A stretch of 64,000 nt of DNA. Source: Candidatus Binatia bacterium. Lineage in GTDB: Bacteria > Chloroflexota > Limnocylindria > QHBO01. The position numbers and the translations under genes are program-made. Shown in pieces: positions 35,052 through 43,044 of the stretch (its first letter is position 1; each line of letters begins with the position of its first letter). The DNA lies in the NCBI GenBank assembly GCA_035512895.1, contig DATKDB010000104.1, positions 1,818 through 65,817 of the forward strand, read 5' to 3'. Under the pieces are notes generated by a model. That model had not been told where the DNA came from, ran no database searches, and saw only the letters and a list, made by a program, of their open reading frames with translations.

Positions 35052-35714
35052 ATGATGTGGAGCATGCCGCCGTCCTGCTGCACGCCCGACTACGACGCCG
35101 CGTTCGACGCGCGATCCGCGCGACGGCAGGCGCTGGCCTATCGCCGATCCGGCGCCGGGGGGAGCACGCTGCGCCTCCTGAACGCGATCCGCGAGACCGA
35201 GGTCGCGGGCGCAGCGGTGCTGGACATCGGCGGCGGCATCGGCGTCATCGGTCTCGAGCTGCTGGCCGCCGGAGCCGCCTCGCTGACGAGCGTCGACGCC
35301 TCGCGGCCGTCAGTGGCCGTCGCCAAGGGGGAGTTGCAGCGCGCTGGCTTGGCGGACCGCGCAACCGTGCGGCATGGCGACTTCGTTGAGCTCGCCGGCG
35401 AGATCGAGGCGGCCGACGTCGTGACGCTCGACCGCGTCGTGTGCTGCTACGGCGATTGGCGAGCGCTCGTGGACGCATCAGTCTCGCATGCCCGGCGAGT
35501 CATCGGCCTCGTCTATCCGAACGAGCGGTGGTGGATGCGCGCCGGCATCGGCATCGGCAACCTCATGCTGCGGCTCGTCGGCCAGTCGTTCCGTGGCTAC
35601 GTGCACCCGGAGCGCGCGATCGACGATCGGATCCGGCGTGCGGGCTTCGAGCGGCGCACGCATCACCGCGGGTGGCTGTGGCAGACCGTGCTGTACGAGC
35701 GGGCGGCGCGCTGA
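35052..35714 (+). CDS. class I SAM-dependent methyltransferase
   Basis: VLDIGGGIGVIGLELL glycine-rich SAM motif. Confidence 0.7.
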   Translation: MMWSMPPSCCTPDYDAAFDARSARRQALAYRRSGAGGSTLRLLNAIRETEVAGAAVLDIGGGIGVIGLELLAAGAASLTSVDASRPSVAVAKGELQRAGLADRATVRHGDFVELAGEIEAADVVTLDRVVCCYGDWRALVDASVSHARRVIGLVYPNERWWMRAGIGIGNLMLRLVGQSFRGYVHPERAIDDRIRRAGFERRTHHRGWLWQTVLYERAAR

Positions 35715-35759
35715 GTCCGGCGCGCTAACGGCGATTGACGAGCACTCATGGAGGCATCG

Positions 35760-35950
35760 GTCTCGCATGCCCGGGGGCTCAAGCCGCGTGCCGCATGCCT
35801 CTGGGGACTCTAACGGCCTGCGGATGGCGGAATATGCGGCCGGTGCATCGGTTCGCCAAGGTTAGGCATCGTCGTTGACGGTGGCAGGGATCGGCGCGCA
35901 TGCATCGGCCATTACGTGGCTGTAAGAGTCACGGGGTGGATGCGGGACGA
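35760..35950 (-). repeat. Copy E of the structured repeat (most divergent)
   Basis: GGACTCTAACGGCCTGCGGATGGCGG...GCGCATGCATCGGCC...GCTGTAAGAGTCACGGGGTGGATGCGG. Confidence 0.55.
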
Positions 35951-35995
35951 AGGGGCTGTGCCGCACGCTGAGCCCGGTCCACTGAACCGAACGAC

Positions 35996-37435
35996 CTAGC
36001 GGGCGTAGCGGACGCCGGCCCCGCGGCGTTCCTTGTTTAGGCGCCGGTTCAGGTGCAGCCCCTCGAGCACGAACTCGATGGCGGACGCGCGCCCGGCGGC
36101 CGACTCGCCGGCGTCGAGGCGGGCGATCGCCGATCCCAGCTCCGCGACCGCGCTCACGAGCTCGCCGTGCGCCGACGACGGCACGAACTCCCCGACCTCC
36201 GCCTCCAGGCCCTCGGTCTCGAACCGCTCGATGAGCGGCATGAGCTCGGCCAGCGCAAAGTGGCGGTTGAAGACGTTCACGACCGCTCGCGCCACGAGCT
36301 TCTCGACGACGCGGTCCTCGCGCGTCTCGTCGCCGAGCGTCTCGAGCTCGATCTTTCCGGCCGTCGAGGCCACGACGGCGGGCAGGTCGCTGATCCGCGG
36401 TGCCGCCGACGGCTCGCCGAGGCGAACCGCCCGCTTCAGCGCGGCCGCGCCGAGCGTCTCGTGATTCGAGATCGTGACGCGCACCGACACGCCGGAACGT
36501 TGCGACACCTCCGACGAGCGTCGGGCCAGCTGCGACAGCTCGGCGACGATCTCCTTCATGAATCCCGGCGTCTGCACCGGGACCGATGCCGGCGTGCCCT
36601 CGGCGGCGTCCTCGAACACCGAGGCCTCGCCCTCCATGATCGCGATCTCGGTCGCCGCCTCCTCGGGGTAATGCGTCCGGATCTGAGCCCCGAACCGGTC
36701 CTTGAGCGGCGTGATGATCCGGCCGCGGCTCGTGTAGTCCTCCGGGTTGGCCGACGCGATGACGAACAGGTCGAGCTCGAGGCGGACGCGGTACCCGCGA
36801 ACCTGGACGTCGCGCTCCTCCATCACGTTGAGCAGGCCGACCTGGATCCGCTCCGCGAGGTCGGGCAGCTCGTTGAGGCTGAAGATGCCGCGATGCGTCC
36901 GTGGCAGGAGCCCGTAGTGGATCGTCAGCTCGTCGGACAGATAACGGCCCTCGGCCACCTTGACGGGATCCACCTCGCCGATGAGGTCGGCGATGCTGAT
37001 GTCCGGGGTGCTGAGCTTCTCGCTGTACCGATCCTGCGCGGCCCACCAGCCGATCGGCGTCGCGTCGCCGTGCTTCGCGACGATGCTGCGTGCGAGCGGC
37101 GAGACCGGATGGAACGGGTCGTCGTGGAGCTCGGTGCCGGCCACGTACGGCAGCCACGGATCGAGCAGGTCCACGAGGGCGCGCGCGATGCGGCTCTTCG
37201 CCTGGCCCCGCTCGCCGAGGAGGATGACGTCCTGGCCGGCGAGGATCGCGTTCTCGAGCTGCGGCAGGACGGTCTCGTCGTATCCGAGGATGCCCGACAG
37301 GAACGGGTCGCCGGCCCGGACGCGGTCGAGCAGGTTGCCGCGCATCTCGGCCTTGACGGTCCGCGAGCGCCAGCCGGCGGAGCGCAGCTCACCGAGGGTC
37401 GTGTCTGCGGGGTGCTGGGTCGCGGGCTCGGGCAT
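35996..37435 (-). CDS. AAA+ ATPase, Mg-chelatase ChlI-like (VWA-partnered type)
   Basis: ILGYDETVLPQLENAILAGQDVILLGERGQAKSRIARALVDLL, compared with ChlI IVGQE...GDRGTGKST.VRAL.DLL. Sensor-2-type C-terminus. Confidence 0.8.
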   Translation of the reverse strand: MPEPATQHPADTTLGELRSAGWRSRTVKAEMRGNLLDRVRAGDPFLSGILGYDETVLPQLENAILAGQDVILLGERGQAKSRIARALVDLLDPWLPYVAGTELHDDPFHPVSPLARSIVAKHGDATPIGWWAAQDRYSEKLSTPDISIADLIGEVDPVKVAEGRYLSDELTIHYGLLPRTHRGIFSLNELPDLAERIQVGLLNVMEERDVQVRGYRVRLELDLFVIASANPEDYTSRGRIITPLKDRFGAQIRTHYPEEAATEIAIMEGEASVFEDAAEGTPASVPVQTPGFMKEIVAELSQLARRSSEVSQRSGVSVRVTISNHETLGAAALKRAVRLGEPSAAPRISDLPAVVASTAGKIELETLGDETREDRVVEKLVARAVVNVFNRHFALAELMPLIERFETEGLEAEVGEFVPSSAHGELVSAVAELGSAIARLDAGESAAGRASAIEFVLEGLHLNRRLNKERRGAGVRYAR

Positions 37436-37483
37436 CAGGCGCAGAGGCTAGCACCCGCGCGGCACAACGGCTATGGGGGCCGA

Positions 37484-37506
37484 TTCGTAACGGCCGCCGT
37501 TACAAA
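37484..37506. promoter_or_regulatory. Palindrome TTCGTAAC-N7-GTTACAAA 48 bp upstream of the ChlI-like ATPase start
   Basis: Same motif and same spacing as the site upstream of the VWA gene at window start. Confidence 0.55.
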
Positions 37507-37784
37507 TCCGCTCGTGATGGCCAGGGCTCAGATCGGGCTGCCGCACGTCCACCGGCGCCCCCAGCGATCCCCCAGAAGTACCCCCCGCCGCGCGGGCGCG
37601 TCGGAAGCCGTGCGCTTGCTCGGCGGGTCCCAAAGTCAGGCATGACCAACGGCCCATCGCCCCCCGGTGACCATCGGAGCAGGATCGCGGCGTAAAGACC
37701 AGCGAGGTCGAAAAACGGCGATCCACTTCGGGTGCCGCGGCATCGGCCGGGCACCCGCTCCGAGCGAAACGGAAGGAATCTCAC

Positions 37785-38381
37785 ATGAACACGATGAACA
37801 CGCGAGGACGGCGCCGTCTCGCAGCCCTCGCGATCGGGCTGGGCCTCCTTGGCACCTTCAGCGCGGCGATGAGCCTGGCGGTCTTCACCGACCAGGAGAC
37901 CGTCGACGGCACCTTCTCGACCGGCTCGATCGTCCTCGACGCGGCGGAGATCGACGCCCTCACCCTGAGCGTCGCGGCCCTCATGCCCGGCGACGCGGTC
38001 ACCGATGACGTCGTCGTCGAGAACGACGGCACGGCGCAGCTGCGCTACGCGATCAGCACGGCCACCACGGACCCCGATGGTAAGGGCCTGCGTGACGCGC
38101 TGAACGTGACCATCCGCACGATCGACGTCACGACCCCGGGCACACCGTGCAACGACTTCGACGGCACCATCCTGTACGACGGCGTCATGGGCGCGGCGAC
38201 GGCCGCGGTCGGCTCGCCGGCCGCCGGAGCTGATGCCGGTGACCGAACGCTGGCCGGCCTGTCGAACGAGACGCTCTGCTTCCGCGTCTCGCTTCCCCTG
38301 GCCACGGGCAACGCGCACGCAGCCGCGACCGCGGTGACGACGTTCACCTTCGACGCGGAGCAGACGGCGAACAACCCGTAG
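37785..38381 (+). CDS. SipW-cognate-class secreted protein (TasA/camelysin-like signal region)
   Basis: MNTMNTRGRRRLAALAIGLGLLGTFSAAMSLAVFTDQETVDGTFSTGSIVLD. Confidence 0.7.
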   Translation: MNTMNTRGRRRLAALAIGLGLLGTFSAAMSLAVFTDQETVDGTFSTGSIVLDAAEIDALTLSVAALMPGDAVTDDVVVENDGTAQLRYAISTATTDPDGKGLRDALNVTIRTIDVTTPGTPCNDFDGTILYDGVMGAATAAVGSPAAGADAGDRTLAGLSNETLCFRVSLPLATGNAHAAATAVTTFTFDAEQTANNP

Positions 38382-38424
38382 GAGGCCGTGAAGAGGGAGC
38401 TGGCGGATCGGCCGCCGGCTCCCG

Positions 38425-38988
38425 ATGAACGGACCAACGACGATCATGGGATTCGTCCGGCACGTCCTCGGCGTGCTCATCGTCCTGCTCATCGGGATCG
38501 GCATCGCGACCCCGGCGGCCACGATGCTCGCCCCGATGATGGACCGCGAGCTCTTCGCCATCCGCGGCACCTCGATGGCGCCCACGATTCCGACGGGCGC
38601 GCTCTCGATCGTCGCCGAGCGTCCGGCGAGCGAGCTGCGTGTCGGCGACGTCGTCACCTGGCGCGGTGACAACGGCGTGTACGTCACGCACCGCGTCGCG
38701 GAGCTGCTCGAGGCAGATGGCCAGCGCTACGTGCGCACGAAGGGCGACGCGAACGTCACCGCCGACCCGGAGCCGGTGCCCGAGCGTGCGATCATCGGGG
38801 TCGTCGAGGCCTGGGTGCCGCTCGGGGGCTACGCGCTCGTCGTCCTCGCCACGCCGAGCGGCCTCGTCGCCTGGCTCTCGTTCGCCATGGCGCTGCTCGT
38901 GCTCGACAGCCTGCTCGGCGCACCCACGCCGCACGCCCCCCGCGCGCGCCACGTGGCGACGTTCGGGCAGCCGGTCCGCAAGGGATGA
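38425..38988 (+). CDS. sipW: signal peptidase I, SipW (archaeal/ER S26B) type
   Basis: FAIRGTSMAPTIPTGA (catalytic Ser box). TM anchors at both ends. Confidence 0.8.
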   Translation: MNGPTTIMGFVRHVLGVLIVLLIGIGIATPAATMLAPMMDRELFAIRGTSMAPTIPTGALSIVAERPASELRVGDVVTWRGDNGVYVTHRVAELLEADGQRYVRTKGDANVTADPEPVPERAIIGVVEAWVPLGGYALVVLATPSGLVAWLSFAMALLVLDSLLGAPTPHAPRARHVATFGQPVRKG

Positions 38989-39977
38989 TGGCGGCGATGG
39001 CGCAGGTCCATCGCCTGAGCCTCCTCGTGCTCGTGGTGGGCACCATCGTCGCGTCCCTGCTCGTCGGCGATGGCGCTCGCGTGTCGCTCGCCGTCTTCGG
39101 CGCCCAGGAGGAGACCTCCGCCACGACGAGCACGGCGGCCTGCTTCGTCGACGACCCCGCCGCACCCACGGTGACCGCGTCCGTCATCGCGAAGACGACG
39201 CCGTACCTCGGCGGCGCGATCCGAGAGGGCGGTGCCTATTACGTGTACGCGAACGTCTCCCCTGGCGCCCTGCCCGTGGCGGCCGTGACAGCCGACGTGC
39301 GACCGCTCACGTCCGGCGAGTTCCTCGTGCCGATGACGGCCGGTGCGTACAGCGTTGAGGGCACCTCGTACGGCTACCGGAGCGGGGCGCTCGCCGCCGA
39401 GTCGCCGCTGGCCGAGGGATCGACCTCCTACTCGGTGAGTGCATCGGACACGGCCAGCGAGTGCCGAACGGTCGCGTCGACCGTCGCGGTCGACAACACC
39501 CCGCCCGTCGGGACCGATGTCCAGCCGACGAACGGCGGCGGTCCGCCGGGAAGGATCCAGGCCGGCGACAGCATCACGTACAGCTTCTCCGAGGTCATCG
39601 ACCCCGAAAGCGTGCTCGCCGGCTGGGCGGGGGCGCCACAGAACGTCGTCGTCCAGGTCACGAACAATGGGAACAATGACCTGCTCACCATCTGGGACAC
39701 GGCGAACGCCACGCAGCTTGCGCTCGGGTCGACCGACGTGGGAGGCAACTTCGTCACGACGGACGTGACGCTCGGGGCGACGGGCACGCCGTCGACGATG
39801 GTGCAGAGCGGCACGACGATCACGGTGACGTTCGGCACCCCGACCGGCACGACGCAGATGGTGACGCAGGACGCCACCGCCATCTGGACGCCATCGGCGG
39901 CCGCGACGGACGCGGCCGGCAACCCGGGCTCCACGACGAGCGTCACCGAGAGCGGGCCCGCCGACCGCAACTTCTAG
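38985..39977 (+). CDS. second SipW-cognate-class secreted protein, Thr/Gly/Ser-rich
   Basis: LAVFGAQEETSATT mirrors AVFTDQETVDGTF of the first substrate. ATGA overlap with the sipW stop. Confidence 0.65.
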   Translation: MMAAMAQVHRLSLLVLVVGTIVASLLVGDGARVSLAVFGAQEETSATTSTAACFVDDPAAPTVTASVIAKTTPYLGGAIREGGAYYVYANVSPGALPVAAVTADVRPLTSGEFLVPMTAGAYSVEGTSYGYRSGALAAESPLAEGSTSYSVSASDTASECRTVASTVAVDNTPPVGTDVQPTNGGGPPGRIQAGDSITYSFSEVIDPESVLAGWAGAPQNVVVQVTNNGNNDLLTIWDTANATQLALGSTDVGGNFVTTDVTLGATGTPSTMVQSGTTITVTFGTPTGTTQMVTQDATAIWTPSAAATDAAGNPGSTTSVTESGPADRNF

Positions 39978-40867
39978 GTCGCCGAGGGGAACGCCGCCAC
40001 GGCAGCCGCGACCGAAGCCGGGTCGCAGACGCCGCGGCGCGCCAGGTCCTCCAGGAAGGACGACCGCCGCGCGAGCTCGGCCTCGAACGCCTCGGGGGTC
40101 GTGCCCAGGCTGTGCGCCAGGACGGCGCAGGCGGCCGAATCGTGCTCGAACGGCCGGGACAAGCGACCGCCGTCATCAGGAAGCAGCGGCGGCGACGGCA
40201 GGCGCTGTGCGCCGGTCAGGCTCGGGGAGCGGTCGCCGGTGATGGCGCCCAGCCGCACCGGGGCGAGCGCGCCGTCTTCGTCAAGGCGCAGGTGCCAGGC
40301 CTCCTCGATCCGCCGGTACATCCCGGCGGGCGTGGCGTAGGCCGAGTACTGCAGGTAGATCGTCAGGCCCGCGAGATCCGCATCGGTCGCGCCGAGGTGG
40401 GTGCGCAGGCCGTCGAGCGCCTCGGGCAGCGAGTCGGCGTGCATCGTCGCGCCGAGGCCCCAGCCCTTGCCCGCGAGCATGAGCGCGCCACGCGCCGCGC
40501 GGCCCCAGACGTAGATCGGCAGGTGGTCGCTCATCTCGTTGATGAGCAGGTAGCCGGTGCCCGGCTCGATCTCCTCGATCCAGTCGTACTCCTCCCACCA
40601 GCCGCGGACGAAGATGCCGGTCGTGTCCGGCGGCAGGAAGTCGACGAGGGCGCTCAACGCCGTCGTCTTGCCGGCCTGGGGCGCCTCGGAGCTGAGCATG
40701 ACGCTGCGTCTCCGGGAGACGACCGCCCAGAGAATCGCCATCAGGCGGCTGTCGATCGTCGGGGTCCCGATGAGCTCGACGGCGCTCATCGGCCTCGGCA
40801 GCGCCCAGTGATAGCCCCACCAGCCGTCTGGGAACCGGGCGGCCCACTGTTCGCGGCTGAGCGTCAT
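39974..40867 (-). CDS. minimal VirB11/CpaF/PilT-family secretion ATPase (RecA-like core only)
   Basis: Walker A SSEAPQAGKTTALSALVDFLPP. Walker B-like LLINEMSD. His-box-like GLGATMHADSLPEALDGL. I trimmed the ORF to MTLSREQW. Confidence 0.5.
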   Translation of the reverse strand: MTLSREQWAARFPDGWWGYHWALPRPMSAVELIGTPTIDSRLMAILWAVVSRRRSVMLSSEAPQAGKTTALSALVDFLPPDTTGIFVRGWWEEYDWIEEIEPGTGYLLINEMSDHLPIYVWGRAARGALMLAGKGWGLGATMHADSLPEALDGLRTHLGATDADLAGLTIYLQYSAYATPAGMYRRIEEAWHLRLDEDGALAPVRLGAITGDRSPSLTGAQRLPSPPLLPDDGGRLSRPFEHDSAACAVLAHSLGTTPEAFEAELARRSSFLEDLARRGVCDPASVAAAVAAFPSAT

Positions 40868-41012
40868 GCACGGACGGTACGGGCCGGCCACTCGCGGCGC
40901 AACACACCCACTGCGTGCGTGCGAACAGGCTCCGTGCGCCAGGCCCATTTTGCGTCCGATGCTCCGGTCCGGAACGAATCCTGCCTGTATCCGGGAGGAA
41001 ACGGATCAATGC

Positions 41013-41105
41013 ATGAAGGGAGACCCAACCATGTTCGGACTCGGAATCGTCGGCACGATCCTGCTGATCATCCTCGTTCTCTGGCTGCTCGGCGTCCTCG
41101 GCTGA
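41013..41105 (+). CDS. 30-aa hydrophobic peptide
   Basis: GGGAGGAA 12 nt upstream. MKGDPTMFGLGIVGTILLIILVLWLLGVLG. Confidence 0.4.
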   Translation: MKGDPTMFGLGIVGTILLIILVLWLLGVLG

Positions 41106-41107
41106 GC

Positions 41108-41560
41108 TCAGGAGGACAGCAGGCGCCGCTGGCGGGCGCGGCGCCAGGCGAACGTCAGGCGCATGACAACCCCCGCCAGCGCGTCAAGGACGGCGCCGGG
41201 CAGCCCGCCCGGACCGACGTGATAGTCAACCTCGTCCTCGATCCACGTGCCGCCGCCACGAGCGGCGGTGAACGTGTGCGAGTGGTGGAAGCGGCGCATC
41301 GGCCCTGAGAGCGTCTCGTCCACGATTCGCGCGCCCGGCACGTGCTCGGTGAAGCGGACGAGCCACGAGCGCTCGAAGGGGCCGATGCCGTAGCGCAGCT
41401 CCATCACGGAGCCCGCCCGCGGTGGGCTGGGCTCGACGCGAGCGACGCGGATGCGCACCGGAGGCGGCATGAGCCGCGCGAGGTTCGCCGGGTCGTCGAA
41501 GAACGCGAATGCCCGGTCGATGGGCGCGGCCACGCGACCGCGGCTTCGGATGACGGGCAC
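41108..41560 (-). CDS. SRPBCC (START/cyclase-dehydrase) family protein
   Basis: GTG start VPVIRSRGRVAAPIDRAFAFFDDPANLARL, 2 nt after the ALDH stop. Confidence 0.65.
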   Translation of the reverse strand: MPVIRSRGRVAAPIDRAFAFFDDPANLARLMPPPVRIRVARVEPSPPRAGSVMELRYGIGPFERSWLVRFTEHVPGARIVDETLSGPMRRFHHSHTFTAARGGGTWIEDEVDYHVGPGGLPGAVLDALAGVVMRLTFAWRRARQRRLLSS

Positions 41561-41562
41561 GA

Positions 41563-43044
41563 TCAGACCCCGAAGGGATTGATCGGCTTCGGCGACGTGC
41601 CCTGCAGGACCGCCTTCGTCTCGGTGTACAGGTCGAGCGCCTCGAGCGACTGCTCGCGCCCATAGCCGGACTCCTTGAAGCCACCGAACGGGACGCCGGG
41701 GAACGCGACGAACGGCGTGTTGATGCCGACAGCGCCCGAGCGGATCCGCTGCGCGACGCGGTGGCCACGCGCGCCGTCCGCCGTCCACACGGTCGCGGCC
41801 AGGCCGTAGCGCACGTCGTTCGCGAACGAGATGGCCTCCTTCTCGTCCGCGAAGCGGGTCAACGTCACGACCGGCCCGAAGACCTCCTCCTGCGCGATGC
41901 GCGAGCCATTGCTCACGCCACCGATGACGGTGGGGGCCACGAAGGCCGCGGCATCGAGGCCGTCGCCGAGCGACAGGTCGCCCCCGGCCAGGAGCTCGCC
42001 CCCGTCCTCCAGGCCCATCTCGACCATCCCACGCACCTTGTCGGCGTGCGCGCGGCTGATGAGCGAGCCGACCTTCGTGTCATCGGCCAATGGGTCACCG
42101 ACCGTGAGCGCCTTCGCCTGCTCCGCAAAGGCCAATGCGAACGCGTCGTACACCTCGTCCTGCACGAGGATCCGCGAGCGAGCCTCGCACGACTGCCCGG
42201 CCGAGTAGTAGATCGCCCACAGCGAGCCGATGACGGCTGCCTCGAGGTCCGCGTCGGCGAAGACGATGTTCGGCGACTTTCCGCCAAGCTCCAATGAGAC
42301 TCGCTTGAGCGTCTTCGCGGCGGCCGCGGCGATGCGACGGCCGGTCGCCGTCTCGCCGGTGAAGGCGACCTTGTCGATCCCCGGATGCGCGGCGATCGCC
42401 TCCCCGACCTCGGCACCCGGACCGGGGACGACGTTGAGGACGCCCGGCGGGATGCCGGCCTCGAGCGCGAGCTCGCCGAGCCGGATGGCGGTGAGCGGCG
42501 TCGCCGATGCCGGCTTGAGCACGAGCGTGTTCCCGGTCGCGAGCGCCGGTGCCACCTTCCAGGCGGCCATCATGAGCGGGTAGTTCCACGGGATGATCGC
42601 CCCGACGACGCCCACCGGCTCGCGCAGCGTGTACGACACGACCGCCGGGTTGACGACGTGCGAGCGCCCGTACAGGTGCTGCGCCGTGCCGGCGAAGAGC
42701 TCGAGGGTCGAGACCGCGACCTTGATCTCGGCCGCGCACTGCCACTTCGCCTTGCCGTTGTTGCGCGACTCGAGCTCGGCGAGCGCATCGGTCTGCTCAT
42801 CGAGCAGCTGCGCCAGCCGGTTGAGCATCCGAGCGCGCTTGGCGGGCGCCGTCTTCGCCCAGGCGCCGTCGAACGCGCCGCGGGCGGCGGCGACCGCCGC
42901 ATCGACGTCATCGGTTCCGGCCTGGGCGACCGTGGCGAGCTCGGCGCCGCGCGCCGGGTCGAAGGTGGGGAAGGTCGCGCCGGCGGCCGCGTCGCGGAGC
43001 TCGCCGTCGATCAGTAGCTGGGTGGCGGTGGTCATGGGCACCAT
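41563..43044 (-). CDS. aldehyde dehydrogenase family protein
   Basis: Catalytic regions LELGGKSP and YSAGQSCEA. Start MVPMTTATQLLIDGE. Confidence 0.85.
   Translation of the reverse strand: MVPMTTATQLLIDGELRDAAAGATFPTFDPARGAELATVAQAGTDDVDAAVAAARGAFDGAWAKTAPAKRARMLNRLAQLLDEQTDALAELESRNNGKAKWQCAAEIKVAVSTLELFAGTAQHLYGRSHVVNPAVVSYTLREPVGVVGAIIPWNYPLMMAAWKVAPALATGNTLVLKPASATPLTAIRLGELALEAGIPPGVLNVVPGPGAEVGEAIAAHPGIDKVAFTGETATGRRIAAAAAKTLKRVSLELGGKSPNIVFADADLEAAVIGSLWAIYYSAGQSCEARSRILVQDEVYDAFALAFAEQAKALTVGDPLADDTKVGSLISRAHADKVRGMVEMGLEDGGELLAGGDLSLGDGLDAAAFVAPTVIGGVSNGSRIAQEEVFGPVVTLTRFADEKEAISFANDVRYGLAATVWTADGARGHRVAQRIRSGAVGINTPFVAFPGVPFGGFKESGYGREQSLEALDLYTETKAVLQGTSPKPINPFGV

What the first reader, a model, noticed from the sequence alone, without database searches (positions are those of the whole stretch)
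37785..41105. SipW-type signal peptidase with two cognate secreted proteins, convergent on a minimal VirB11/CpaF-like ATPase and a 30-aa TM peptide
This is a three-gene operon: a substrate with a SipW-cognate signal region (LAVFTDQETVDG), sipW (catalytic GTSMAPTIPTGA), and a second substrate that is larger and Thr/Gly-rich with the matching LAVFGAQEETSATT.

That layout matches the TasA/SipW architecture used to build extracellular fibres in Bacillus.

The operon converges on a 298-aa RecA-core-only secretion-type ATPase (Walker A GKTT, His box GLGATMHADSLPEALDGL). The ATPase lacks the usual TadB/TadC partners, and the cluster ends with a tiny hydrophobic peptide.

An ATPase next to a SipW fibre module is unusual. 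It may indicate an uncharacterised surface-filament or secretion assembly in this actinobacterium.
Basis: partly seen in the sequence, partly recalled or inferred. Interest (0 to 1): 0.65.

Follow-up and report, generated by a model that had tools for sequence, protein, structure and literature searches.

The report
TasA-type fibre cassette beside unrelated ATPase
This is an ordinary TasA/SipW-type extracellular fibre operon (already annotated as such) sitting in a swap-prone gap of a soil Chloroflexota genome; the neighbouring secretion-like ATPase is a conserved housekeeping-type gene that belongs with a different partner, not with the fibre genes.

Summary
Genes 37785-39977 (+) form a tight three-gene cassette. 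It holds a TasA/camelysin-family protein (Pfam PF12389 above threshold), an ER/archaeal-type signal peptidase I (TIGR02228, 94.5 bits) and a 330-aa secreted protein with two Ig-like domains. The N-terminal segment of that third protein mimics the TasA-like N-terminus.

The convergent 297-aa gene is a real but very divergent homologue of the C-terminal ATPase domain of archaeal FlaI/GspE. It has no N-terminal domain.

In 80 Limnocylindria species loci the ATPase is followed within 300 bp by a ChlI/MoxR-like AAA+ gene in 64 of 78 loci. Only 3 of 64 informative loci carry any cassette gene. Only 2 of 14 informative TasA-like loci have the ATPase nearby.

A near-identical relative (flanks 95-97% nucleotide identity) carries a different tasA-sipW-X cassette at the same site, so this is an insertion or replacement hot spot.

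The organism is Chloroflexota (Limnocylindria), not an actinobacterium. The tiny peptide is narrowly conserved and unrelated to the cassette.

Verdict: a new member of a known kind, of low to moderate interest.

The parts
37574..37784 (.). Cassette-specific upstream region: the left edge of the variable island and the presumed promoter region of the fibre operon.
   Evidence: Nucleotide identity with the close relative L008 (96.7% over window 35982-37573) stops at 37573. No sigma-70 consensus, terminator or Rfam element was found here.
37785..38381 (+). TasA/camelysin-family protein (sub1, 198 aa), the presumed major fibre subunit. Its signal peptide has a predicted SipW cleavage at SLA|VF, with Phe at P2'.
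   Evidence: PF12389 scores 27.4 bits against a cut-off of 22.5. The family profile hits the TasA fibre structure 8AUR at E = 4e-4, aligned from mature TasA residue 2. NCBI names the identical protein 'TasA family protein'. The invariant Cys122/Cys165 pair comes from alignment A3.
38425..38988 (+). Dedicated ER/archaeal-type signal peptidase I (SipW-like, 187 aa).
   Evidence: TIGR02228 scores 94.5 bits against a cut-off of 51.85. The SM.P, H-R-V and GDAN motifs are conserved in three divergent cassettes. The gene lies next to the tasA-like gene in 71 of 80 metagenome loci.
38985..39977 (+). Second SipW-type substrate (sub2, 330 aa). It has a signal peptide, a disordered TasA-like N-terminal strand and two Ig-like beta domains. 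It is the proposed TapA/AbpB-like nucleator or adhesin.
   Evidence: The AF2 model has pLDDT 86.6, with residues 24-48 disordered. Foldseek hits are tandem Ig and SiiE BIg domains. The profile hits SiiE 2YN3. Homologues carry PF19077 Big_13. hhalign matches sub1 27-55 to sub2 31-59 at E = 3e-5. The start codon overlaps the sipW stop.
39974..40867 (-). Neighbour, judged NOT part of the module: a 297-aa homologue of the FlaI/GspE secretion ATPase that has only the C-terminal domain. It is conserved across Limnocylindria.
   Evidence: In relatives the ChlI/MoxR-like gene follows within 300 bp in 64 of 78 loci. Homology with L008 resumes at 39993.
41013..41105 (+). Neighbour, judged NOT part of the module: a 30-aa (conserved core 24 aa) hydrophobic small ORF.
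   Evidence: It is 100% conserved in L008 and 83% over 23 aa in L025 at the same relative position, and absent from the other loci. There is a weak DUF3309 hit, 15.9 bits against a cut-off of 22.3.
35996..37435 (-). Context: a ChlI/MoxR-like AAA+ protein (479 aa), the usual operon partner of the ATPase. The inserted cassette separates the two genes here.
   Evidence: Pfam AAA_5 and Sigma54_activat hits. PDB ChlI 8OSF at E = 5e-10. Synteny.

Best explanation
Window 37574-39992 is a self-contained TasA-type extracellular fibre cassette.

Proposed mechanism (the first four steps are inferred by analogy with Bacillus subtilis):
1. sub1 (TasA/camelysin family) and sub2 are exported by Sec.
2. The dedicated ER-type peptidase SipW removes their unusual signal peptides, cutting at SLA|VF with Phe at P2'.
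3. sub1 then polymerises outside the cell by donor-strand exchange of its N-terminal strand. No ATPase is needed for this.
4. sub2 has a disordered N-terminal strand that copies the sub1 N-terminus, followed by two Ig-like domains. It most likely plays the role of TapA or AbpB: it donates the first strand to nucleate or cap a fibre, and it acts as an anchor or adhesin.

Shown by comparative genomics: the cassette sits in an insertion and replacement hot spot between two conserved, normally operonic genes. These are an N-domain-less FlaI/GspE-like ATPase and a ChlI/MoxR-like AAA+ protein of Limnocylindria (Chloroflexota). Its convergence on the ATPase is therefore positional, not functional.
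For: Family assignments:
- sub1: PF12389 above threshold, a profile hit to the TasA fibre 8AUR and the NCBI name.
- SipW: TIGR02228 at 94.5 bits.
- sub2: a confident two-Ig-domain model with a disordered N-terminus.

sub1 and sub2 relationship:
- The only similarity between the sub1 and sub2 families is the N-terminal segment (hhalign E = 3e-5; motif listing).
- The same signature was reported for TapA and TasA (PMC9674648; PMC10151520).
- The sipW stop and sub2 start overlap, as was noted for tapA and sipW.

Module integrity:
- sipW follows tasA in 71 of 80 loci and sub2 follows in 26.
- The same core gene order, tasA-like, sipW, then the Ig-domain protein, occurs elsewhere in Limnocylindria genomes with no ATPase nearby. 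In L005-L007 there are two extra small genes, one between tasA and sipW and one after the Ig-domain gene.

Independence from the ATPase:
- The ATPase to MoxR-like gap is 300 bp or less in 64 of 78 species loci, and cassette genes occur in only 3 of 64.
- L001-L003 lack the cassette.
- L008 has flanks 95-97% identical but a different tasA-sipW-418aa cassette.
- Unrelated cargo occupies the same gap in other genomes.

TasA homologues were already reported in Chloroflexota (PMC9245690).
Against: - No structure was predicted for sub1. Pfam and PDB matches cover mainly its N-terminal 90 residues plus a weak collinear C-terminal stretch.
- Neither window protein reaches the TIGR04088 'SipW-cognate' model.
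- sub2 shows no sequence or fold match to TapA itself, so its role is argued only by analogy.
- Within-cassette co-variation of the sub1 and sub2 N-termini is weak (0.366 against 0.342 identity, permutation p = 0.01).
- The cassette and the ATPase do co-occur, convergent and abutting, in a small clade (window, L004, L042, L090, L091, and L008 with a different cassette). A lineage-specific link therefore cannot be formally excluded.
- Fibre formation is untested.
Confidence: 0.8

Rival explanations
1. One reading: the core-only FlaI/CpaF-like ATPase energises secretion or assembly of the SipW-dependent fibre, forming a new ATPase-assisted surface-filament system.
For: - The two are convergent and overlap by 4 nt in the window.
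- The same arrangement occurs in L004, L042, L090 and L091.
- There is a precedent: in Clostridium perfringens, secretion of products of a sipW-bsaA-bsaB-bsaC operon depends on type IV pilus genes (PMC11580942).
Against: - The ATPase is present without the cassette in 61 of 64 informative species loci, and the cassette is present without the ATPase in 12 of 14 informative loci.
- The ATPase is 68-96% conserved regardless of whether the cassette is present.
- A near-identical backbone carries a different cassette.
- No platform protein (T2SSF/TadB/TadC/FlaJ), prepilin peptidase or pilin is annotated within 8 kb either side in L001-L003.
- The two are on opposite strands, so they are not co-transcribed.
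- TasA assembly in Bacillus needs no ATPase (PMC9674648).
Confidence: 0.05
2. sub2 is an independent SipW-processed adhesin or matrix protein that does not interact with the sub1 fibre. The shared N-terminal motif reflects only SipW substrate recognition.
For: - The shared segment starts in the signal-peptide c-region.
- Many cassettes have tasA and sipW but a different or absent third gene. L008 has a 418-aa repeat protein, and 8 of 14 long loci lack sub2.
- There is no fold match to TapA.
Against: - The similarity extends about 20 residues beyond the predicted cleavage site, into the region that is the donor strand in TasA.
- That segment is disordered in the sub2 model, as in TapA.
- sub2 is translationally coupled to sipW.
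Confidence: 0.3
3. sub1 is a camelysin-like cell-surface protease (Peptidase_M73) rather than a fibre subunit.
For: The Pfam family name is Peptidase_M73, 'camelysin metallo-endopeptidase'. Some JGI names for homologues say 'camelysin-like metallo-endopeptidase'.
Against: - The family's structurally characterised members (TasA 5OF1 and 8AUR, archaeal AbpA) are jelly-roll fibre subunits.
- I saw no metalloprotease motif such as HExxH in the printed sub1 sequence.
- The N-terminal donor-strand-like segment is the most conserved part of the protein.
Confidence: 0.05

Closest known systems
Bacillus subtilis tapA-sipW-tasA operon (TasA donor-strand-exchange biofilm fibres)
   Same: - A three-gene operon built around a dedicated ER-type SipW peptidase.
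- The major subunit belongs to Pfam PF12389, with an A-x-A|x-F cleavage context.
- The accessory protein has an unstructured N-terminus resembling the major subunit's donor strand, followed by an Ig-like domain.
- The accessory gene is translationally coupled to sipW.
   Different: - The gene order is tasA-sipW-accessory instead of tapA-sipW-tasA.
- sub1 is shorter (198 aa against 261) and only about 27 bits to the family models.
- The accessory protein has two Ig-like/BIg domains and no detectable homology to TapA.
- The host is a Chloroflexota (Limnocylindria) MAG.
- The SipW protein does not reach the Bacillus SipW equivalog cut-off (66.9 against 190 bits).
Archaeal bundling pili AbpA/AbpB (Pyrobaculum calidifontis; PMC9245690)
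   Same: A TasA-homologous jelly-roll subunit lies next to a larger beta-rich secreted protein. That protein is proposed to start the filament by donating the first strand and to act as an adhesin.
   Different: The archaeal operon has no dedicated signal peptidase and relies on the generic one. Here a dedicated SipW is present. Sequence similarity to AbpA was not tested.
Bacillus cereus sipW-calY1-bc1280-calY2 and Clostridium perfringens sipW-bsaA-bsaB-bsaC operons
   Same: SipW lies beside one or more TasA-like subunits with lineage-specific accessory proteins.
   Different: - This window has only one TasA-like paralogue.
- TIGR04090 (BsaA family) gives only 16.9 bits against a cut-off of 60.
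- There is no vWA protein.
- The adjacent ATPase is not a PilB-type type IV pilus ATPase and is not syntenic with the cassette.
Archaeal secretion ATPases FlaI (4II7/4IHQ) and Archaeoglobus GspE (2OAP)
   Same: The neighbouring 297-aa protein is homologous to their C-terminal ATPase domain from just before Walker A to the C-terminus (profile E = 4e-34 and 2e-24; Foldseek probability 1.00). The Walker A Lys/Thr, the Walker B Glu and the His-box His are conserved.
   Different: - It lacks the roughly 225-residue N-terminal domain entirely.
- The P-loop is one residue longer and lacks the first Gly (SEAPQAGKTT).
- A family-specific SDHLPxYxWG insertion follows the Walker B Glu.
- No FlaJ/TadB-type platform gene is nearby.
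- It is bacterial and pairs with a ChlI/MoxR-like AAA+ gene.

Membership tests
TasA/camelysin family (Pfam PF12389, Peptidase_M73) - sub1 | Score at or above the curated Pfam gathering threshold | tested here: met
   27.4 bits against a cut-off of 22.5, residues 16-87 only. Most of the 120 closest homologues carry PF12389, and NCBI names the identical protein 'TasA family protein'.
TasA/camelysin family (Pfam PF12389, Peptidase_M73) - sub1 | N-terminal donor strand directly after a SipW-type cleavage site (A-x-A | x-aromatic) | tested here: met
   The profile alignment to the mature TasA fibre chain 8AUR starts at TasA residue 2, with FTDQETV.GTFSSGS aligned to FNDIKSKDATFASGT. This places cleavage at SLA|VF with Phe at P2'. 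Function as a donor strand is inferred.
TasA/camelysin family (Pfam PF12389, Peptidase_M73) - sub1 | Jelly-roll fold of the whole mature protein | not tested
The only other evidence is a weak collinear C-terminal match to TasA.
TasA/camelysin family (Pfam PF12389, Peptidase_M73) - sub1 | Encoded next to a dedicated sipW | tested here: met
   44-bp gap in the window. sipW lies immediately downstream in 71 of 80 related loci.
TasA/camelysin family (Pfam PF12389, Peptidase_M73) - sub1 | Forms extracellular fibres | not testable with these tools
   Needs expression, purification and electron microscopy.
SipW-cognate signal peptide domain (TIGR04088) | Score at or above the curated cut-off (19 bits) | tested here: not met
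   No hit for sub1 or sub2 even at E <= 10. A related L005 TasA-like protein gets 16 bits, below the cut-off. JGI labels several homologues of both proteins with this model's name.
ER/archaeal-type signal peptidase I (TIGR02228; SipW-like) | Score at or above the curated cut-off | tested here: met
   94.5 bits against 51.85, residues 13-160.
ER/archaeal-type signal peptidase I (TIGR02228; SipW-like) | Ser/His(/Asp) catalytic residues instead of the Ser/Lys dyad | tested here: met
   The GTSMAPT, VTHRV and KGDAN motifs are conserved in the window, L005 and L008 peptidases, which are only 35-39% identical. Assigning these motifs as the catalytic residues rests on my knowledge of B. subtilis SipW (Ser47, His87, Asp106).
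Bacillus SipW equivalog (NF046067) | Score at or above 190 bits | tested here: not met
   66.9 bits. It is SipW-like in function and context but not an orthologue-level match.
TapA (B. subtilis fibre nucleator) - sub2 | Sequence or fold homology to TapA | tested here: not met
   No TapA chain was found in the PDB profile search or in the top 50 Foldseek hits.
TapA (B. subtilis fibre nucleator) - sub2 | Unstructured N-terminal segment resembling the major subunit's donor strand, followed by a stable Ig-type domain | tested here: met
   hhalign matches sub1 27-55 to sub2 31-59 at E = 3e-5. pLDDT is below 50 for residues 24-48, followed by two confident beta domains. Foldseek hits are tandem Ig and BIg domains.
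Type II/IV secretion ATPase superfamily (PF00437 T2SSE; FlaI/GspE/CpaF/VirB11) - 297-aa neighbour | Pfam PF00437 hit | tested here: not met
   No Pfam hit for the window protein at E <= 0.1. 22 of 60 family members give weak PF00437 hits, best 1.4e-5.
Type II/IV secretion ATPase superfamily (PF00437 T2SSE; FlaI/GspE/CpaF/VirB11) - 297-aa neighbour | Homology of the ATPase (C-terminal) domain | tested here: met
   The family profile matches 2OAP at E = 4.4e-34, FlaI at 2e-24 and CpaF at 1e-5. Foldseek's top hits are 2OAP, FlaI and CpaF with probability 1.00 and TMq 0.52-0.56. The model is only moderate, with pLDDT 66.8.
Type II/IV secretion ATPase superfamily (PF00437 T2SSE; FlaI/GspE/CpaF/VirB11) - 297-aa neighbour | N-terminal domain that packs against the neighbouring subunit in the hexamer | tested here: not met
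   The protein begins at the equivalent of FlaI/afGspE residue ~226-232. Homologues share the same short N-terminus.
Type II/IV secretion ATPase superfamily (PF00437 T2SSE; FlaI/GspE/CpaF/VirB11) - 297-aa neighbour | Canonical Walker A (GxxxxGK[ST]), Walker B Glu and His box | tested here: inconclusive
   The Lys/Thr of GKTT, Glu112 and His144 are invariant. However, the P-loop is SEAPQAGKTT, one residue longer and without the first Gly. The AF2 model has low confidence in these segments. Catalytic competence is unknown.
Type II/IV secretion ATPase superfamily (PF00437 T2SSE; FlaI/GspE/CpaF/VirB11) - 297-aa neighbour | Adjacent platform protein (T2SSF/TadB/TadC/FlaJ) and filament subunits | tested here: not met
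   None among the Pfam-annotated genes within 8 kb either side in L001-L003. The constant neighbours are Aldedh, SRPBCC and the ChlI/MoxR-like AAA+ gene.
   3 of 64 informative ATPase loci and 2 of 14 informative tasA loci. The cassette is swapped between near-identical backbones.

The most novel reading that the evidence does not exclude
Two things remain open.

(a) The conserved pair of an N-domain-less FlaI/GspE-type ATPase (noncanonical P-loop, SDHLPxYxWG insertion) and a ChlI/MoxR-like AAA+ protein is kept at 68-96% identity in at least 80 Limnocylindria species loci. The ATPase has 30-45%-identical relatives in other Chloroflexota, all unnamed. The pair could be an uncharacterised cytoplasmic two-ATPase machine that has been exapted away from filament secretion.

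(b) The gap between the two genes is a hot spot where whole TasA-fibre cassettes are exchanged between strains. That would point to diversifying selection on surface fibres in soil Chloroflexota.
Probability: 0.25. Interest if true: 0.55.

Novelty: new member of a known kind. Interest (0 to 1): 0.3.

Why it matters
The cassette adds a concrete, cleanly delimited example of the TasA/SipW donor-strand fibre system in an uncultured soil Chloroflexota class.

Its accessory protein has two Ig-like domains and appears to reproduce the TapA trick, an N-terminal strand that mimics the donor strand, without any homology to TapA. That supports the view that a major subunit plus a strand-donating nucleator is a general design of these fibres.

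The strain-level swap of the whole cassette hints that these fibres are under diversifying selection.

The main practical value is negative. It shows that adjacency to a secretion-like ATPase here is an insertion-site accident, which prevents a false 'new secretion system' call.

The orphan FlaI-like ATPase and AAA+ pair is the more unusual item, but it lies outside the finding as posed.

Tried and rejected
- Alignment A2 (distant ATPase relatives) was too divergent to seed search for related loci. A1 was used instead, so synteny was measured only within Limnocylindria. Genomic context of the 30-45%-identical relatives could not be fetched.
- The AF2 model of the ATPase is only moderate (pLDDT 66.8, low around the nucleotide site), because the usable alignment was 79-86% identical.
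- TIGR04088 and other NCBIfam models at E <= 10 gave nothing for sub1 or sub2 beyond weak TasA and BsaA hits.
- Rfam at E <= 1 over 35500-41800 gave no RNA element, and in particular no c-di-GMP riboswitch ahead of the operon.
- The sigma-70 promoter and intrinsic-terminator scans over 37300-41300 found nothing.
- Within-cassette co-variation of the sub1 and sub2 N-termini is only marginal (0.366 against 0.342 identity, p = 0.01), probably driven by one divergent cassette type. I do not use it as evidence.
- A window-wide search for further TasA, sub2, SipW or ATPase copies, and for further SipW-type N-termini, found none.
- I considered and rejected sub1 as a camelysin protease, and the tiny ORF as a component of the cluster.

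Full report
**1. What is there**

- sub1: 37785-38381 (+), 198 aa.
- sipW: 38425-38988 (+), 187 aa.
- sub2: 38985-39977 (+), 330 aa. Its ATG overlaps the sipW stop.
- A convergent ORF: 39974-40948 (-).
- A small hydrophobic ORF: 41013-41105 (+).

An alignment of 30 homologues shows that the convergent gene starts at the Met at 40867, giving 297 aa. That is also the length of the identical NCBI protein. sub2 and this gene overlap by 4 nt at their 3' ends.

The window matches an NCBI MAG contig at 100% protein identity, and that contig is already annotated. The annotations are 'sigma 54-interacting transcriptional regulator' (35996-37435), 'TasA family protein' (sub1), 'signal peptidase I' (sipW), and 'hypothetical protein' for both sub2 and the ATPase-like gene.

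**2. Family assignments**

sub1 passes Pfam PF12389 (Peptidase_M73, the TasA/camelysin family) at 27.4 bits against a cut-off of 22.5. The match covers residues 16-87 only. A profile of 34 homologues hits the TasA fibre structure 8AUR (E = 4e-4) and the monomer 5OF1. That alignment starts at residue 2 of mature TasA. It places the cleavage site at SLA|VF, with Phe at P2'. A Phe at P2' is the feature that makes TasA a poor substrate for LepB-type peptidases (abstract of PMC10269814).

SipW passes TIGR02228 (archaeal/ER-type signal peptidase I) at 94.5 bits against 51.85. Its SM.P, H-R-V and GDAN motifs are kept in peptidases from three divergent cassettes.

sub2 has no family hit of its own. 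It belongs to a family of about 325-aa proteins, some of which carry PF19077 Big_13. Its profile hits the BIg domains of SiiE. The AF2 model is confident (pLDDT 86.6). It shows a signal helix, a disordered stretch (residues 24-48) and two beta-sandwich domains. Foldseek matches these domains to tandem Ig, BIg and Fn3-like modules.

Profile-profile comparison of the sub1 and sub2 families finds a single shared region, sub1 27-55 against sub2 31-59 (E = 3e-5). This region is the signal c-region plus roughly 20 residues of the mature N-terminus. The motif is visible across 26 cassettes.

**3. The ATPase-like gene**

Single-sequence searches give only weak hits around Walker A, to FlaI and TadA in NCBIfam and to afGspE 2OAP at E = 6e-6.

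An exhaustive search found 513 clusters of mostly 260-310-aa relatives. A profile of 60 of them matches afGspE at E = 4.4e-34 and FlaI at about 2e-24, across the whole C-terminal ATPase domain. It matches CpaF at 1e-5. Foldseek on the moderate AF2 model (pLDDT 66.8, pTM 0.73) returns the same proteins first.

The protein is closest to archaeal FlaI/GspE and has no N-terminal domain at all. Its P-loop is noncanonical (SEAPQAGKTT), and a family-specific insertion follows the Walker B Glu. Activity is thus uncertain. Named relatives are all 'hypothetical protein' from Chloroflexota or Dehalococcoidia MAGs, apart from two JGI entries labelled EcfA2.

**4. Is the ATPase linked to the fibre genes?**

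It is not. Contexts of close homologues on long contigs show a shared gene order: RR, HK, GNAT, (SRPBCC), Aldedh, ATPase, ChlI/MoxR-like AAA+. No sipW or tasA appears there (L001-L003).

A scan of GTDB species representatives returned 80 loci, nearly all labelled Limnocylindria, Chloroflexota or Chloroflexia.
- In 64 of 78 loci the AAA+ gene follows the ATPase within 300 bp.
- 13 loci have inserts of more than 1 kb.
- Only 3 of 64 informative loci (L008, L041, L042) contain any cassette gene.

The reverse test used 80 metagenomic loci holding close sub1 homologues.
- sipW lies next door in 71 and sub2 in 26.
- Of the 14 with at least 3.5 kb downstream, only 2 (L090, L091, the closest relatives) have the ATPase.

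Elsewhere in Limnocylindria genomes the same core order (tasA-like, sipW, Ig-domain protein, with two extra small genes interleaved) sits next to a two-component system, with no ATPase nearby (L005-L007).

The most telling case is L008. It shares 95-97% nucleotide identity with the window on both sides. Between window 37574 and 39992, however, it carries a different cassette. Its TasA-like protein is 46% identical, its SipW 39% identical, and its third gene is an unrelated 418-aa two-repeat protein with a SipW-type N-terminus. In other genomes the same gap holds unrelated cargo, including a 1190-aa zinc-ribbon protein, lipoproteins and small regulators.

The ATPase to AAA+ gap is therefore an insertion and replacement hot spot, and the convergence is positional.

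**5. The tiny ORF**

It is 100% conserved in L008. It is 83% conserved in L025 from its second Met, at the same relative position. It is absent from the other 85 loci. It has only a sub-threshold DUF3309 hit. It may be a real small membrane peptide, but nothing connects it to either neighbour.

**6. Mechanism**

*Shown:*
- The family memberships above.
- The operon structure.
- The shared N-terminal segment of sub1 and sub2.
- The disordered N-terminus plus Ig-like domains of sub2.
- The modular mobility of the cassette.

*Inferred from B. subtilis work (PMC9674648; PMC10151520) and from archaeal ABP (PMC9245690):*
- Sec export of both proteins.
- SipW cleavage at SLA|VF.
- ATP-independent polymerisation of sub1 by donor-strand exchange.
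- sub2 donating the first strand, as TapA and AbpB are proposed to do, while its Ig-like domains anchor or adhere.

I put about 0.8 on 'TasA-type fibre cassette, ATPase unrelated' and about 0.5 on the specific TapA-like role of sub2.

**7. Comparison with what is known, and novelty**

TasA homologues were already reported as widespread in Chloroflexota, and this locus is already annotated as TasA plus signal peptidase. It is a new member of a known kind. Three modestly new aspects are the non-homologous two-Ig accessory with a donor-strand-like N-terminus, the tasA-sipW-accessory gene order, and the strain-level cassette swap.

The orphan FlaI-like ATPase and AAA+ pair is the most unusual object nearby. 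It is not what the finding proposed.

**8. Negative results**

- No Rfam element.
- No consensus promoter or terminator.
- No additional cassette-family genes in the window.
- Two structure libraries were unavailable.

Noticed in passing
window 35996-37435 (-) and 39974-40867 (-); L009-L087: An N-domain-less FlaI/GspE-like ATPase and a 479-aa ChlI/MoxR-like AAA+ protein (which NCBI calls a 'sigma 54-interacting transcriptional regulator') form a tightly conserved co-directional pair across Limnocylindria. The gap is 300 bp or less in 64 of 78 species loci, and the genes sometimes overlap. The function is unknown. All ATPase homologues are unnamed.
   Followed up: partly
window 37574-39992 compared with L008 8878-11663: The whole fibre cassette is replaced between two backbones that are 95-97% identical at the nucleotide level. 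The TasA-like proteins are 46% identical, the SipW proteins 39%, and the third gene is unrelated (a 418-aa two-repeat protein). The right-hand breakpoint lies inside the last ~20 nt of the ATPase gene and changes its C-terminal tail.
   Followed up: yes
L046, L018, L020, L023, L010, L001 and others: the gap between the ATPase and the AAA+ gene: The same intergenic site holds unrelated cargo in other species. Examples are a ~1190-aa protein with an N-terminal zinc-ribbon motif, ~630-aa lipoprotein-like proteins, ~250-280-aa putative regulators and a ~370-390-aa protein. This is a general insertion hot spot.
   Followed up: partly
L005 6329-9526, L006 6343-9532, L007 354-3543: A five-gene version of the cassette: TasA-like 195 aa, 174 aa, SipW, Big_13 327-329 aa, 180 aa. 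It lies directly downstream of a divergent PAS histidine kinase and OmpR-type response regulator pair. The 174-aa and 180-aa proteins have signal-like N-termini and no family hits. They may be minor subunits.
   Followed up: no
window 41013-41105 (+); L008 7769-7858; L025 1554-1622: A small hydrophobic ORF (MFGLGIVGTILLIILVLWLLGVLG core) is conserved in only two related genomes, between the SRPBCC gene and the ATPase on the opposite strand. It has a sub-threshold DUF3309 similarity.
   Followed up: partly
window 38985-39977 (sub2 C-terminus); alignment A4: The sub2 family ends in an invariant or nearly invariant motif, E..G.AD..F-COOH (E322, D327, F330). It has no sortase or transmembrane anchor, so how the protein is retained at the cell surface is unclear.
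   Followed up: no
L004 2580-3800: In one relative that has the same sipW-sub2 against ATPase convergence, an extra 406-aa L-type lectin/PKD-domain protein is inserted between the ATPase and the SRPBCC gene. This is another secreted-protein insertion near the locus.
   Followed up: no
record titles of L008, L024, L057, L061, L073, L030, L078 and the source MAG: Several MAGs that carry this clearly Limnocylindria-type locus are labelled Steroidobacteraceae, Candidatus Angelobacter, Dormiibacterota or Candidatus Binatia in their records. These are probable taxonomic mislabels or mis-binning.
   Followed up: no
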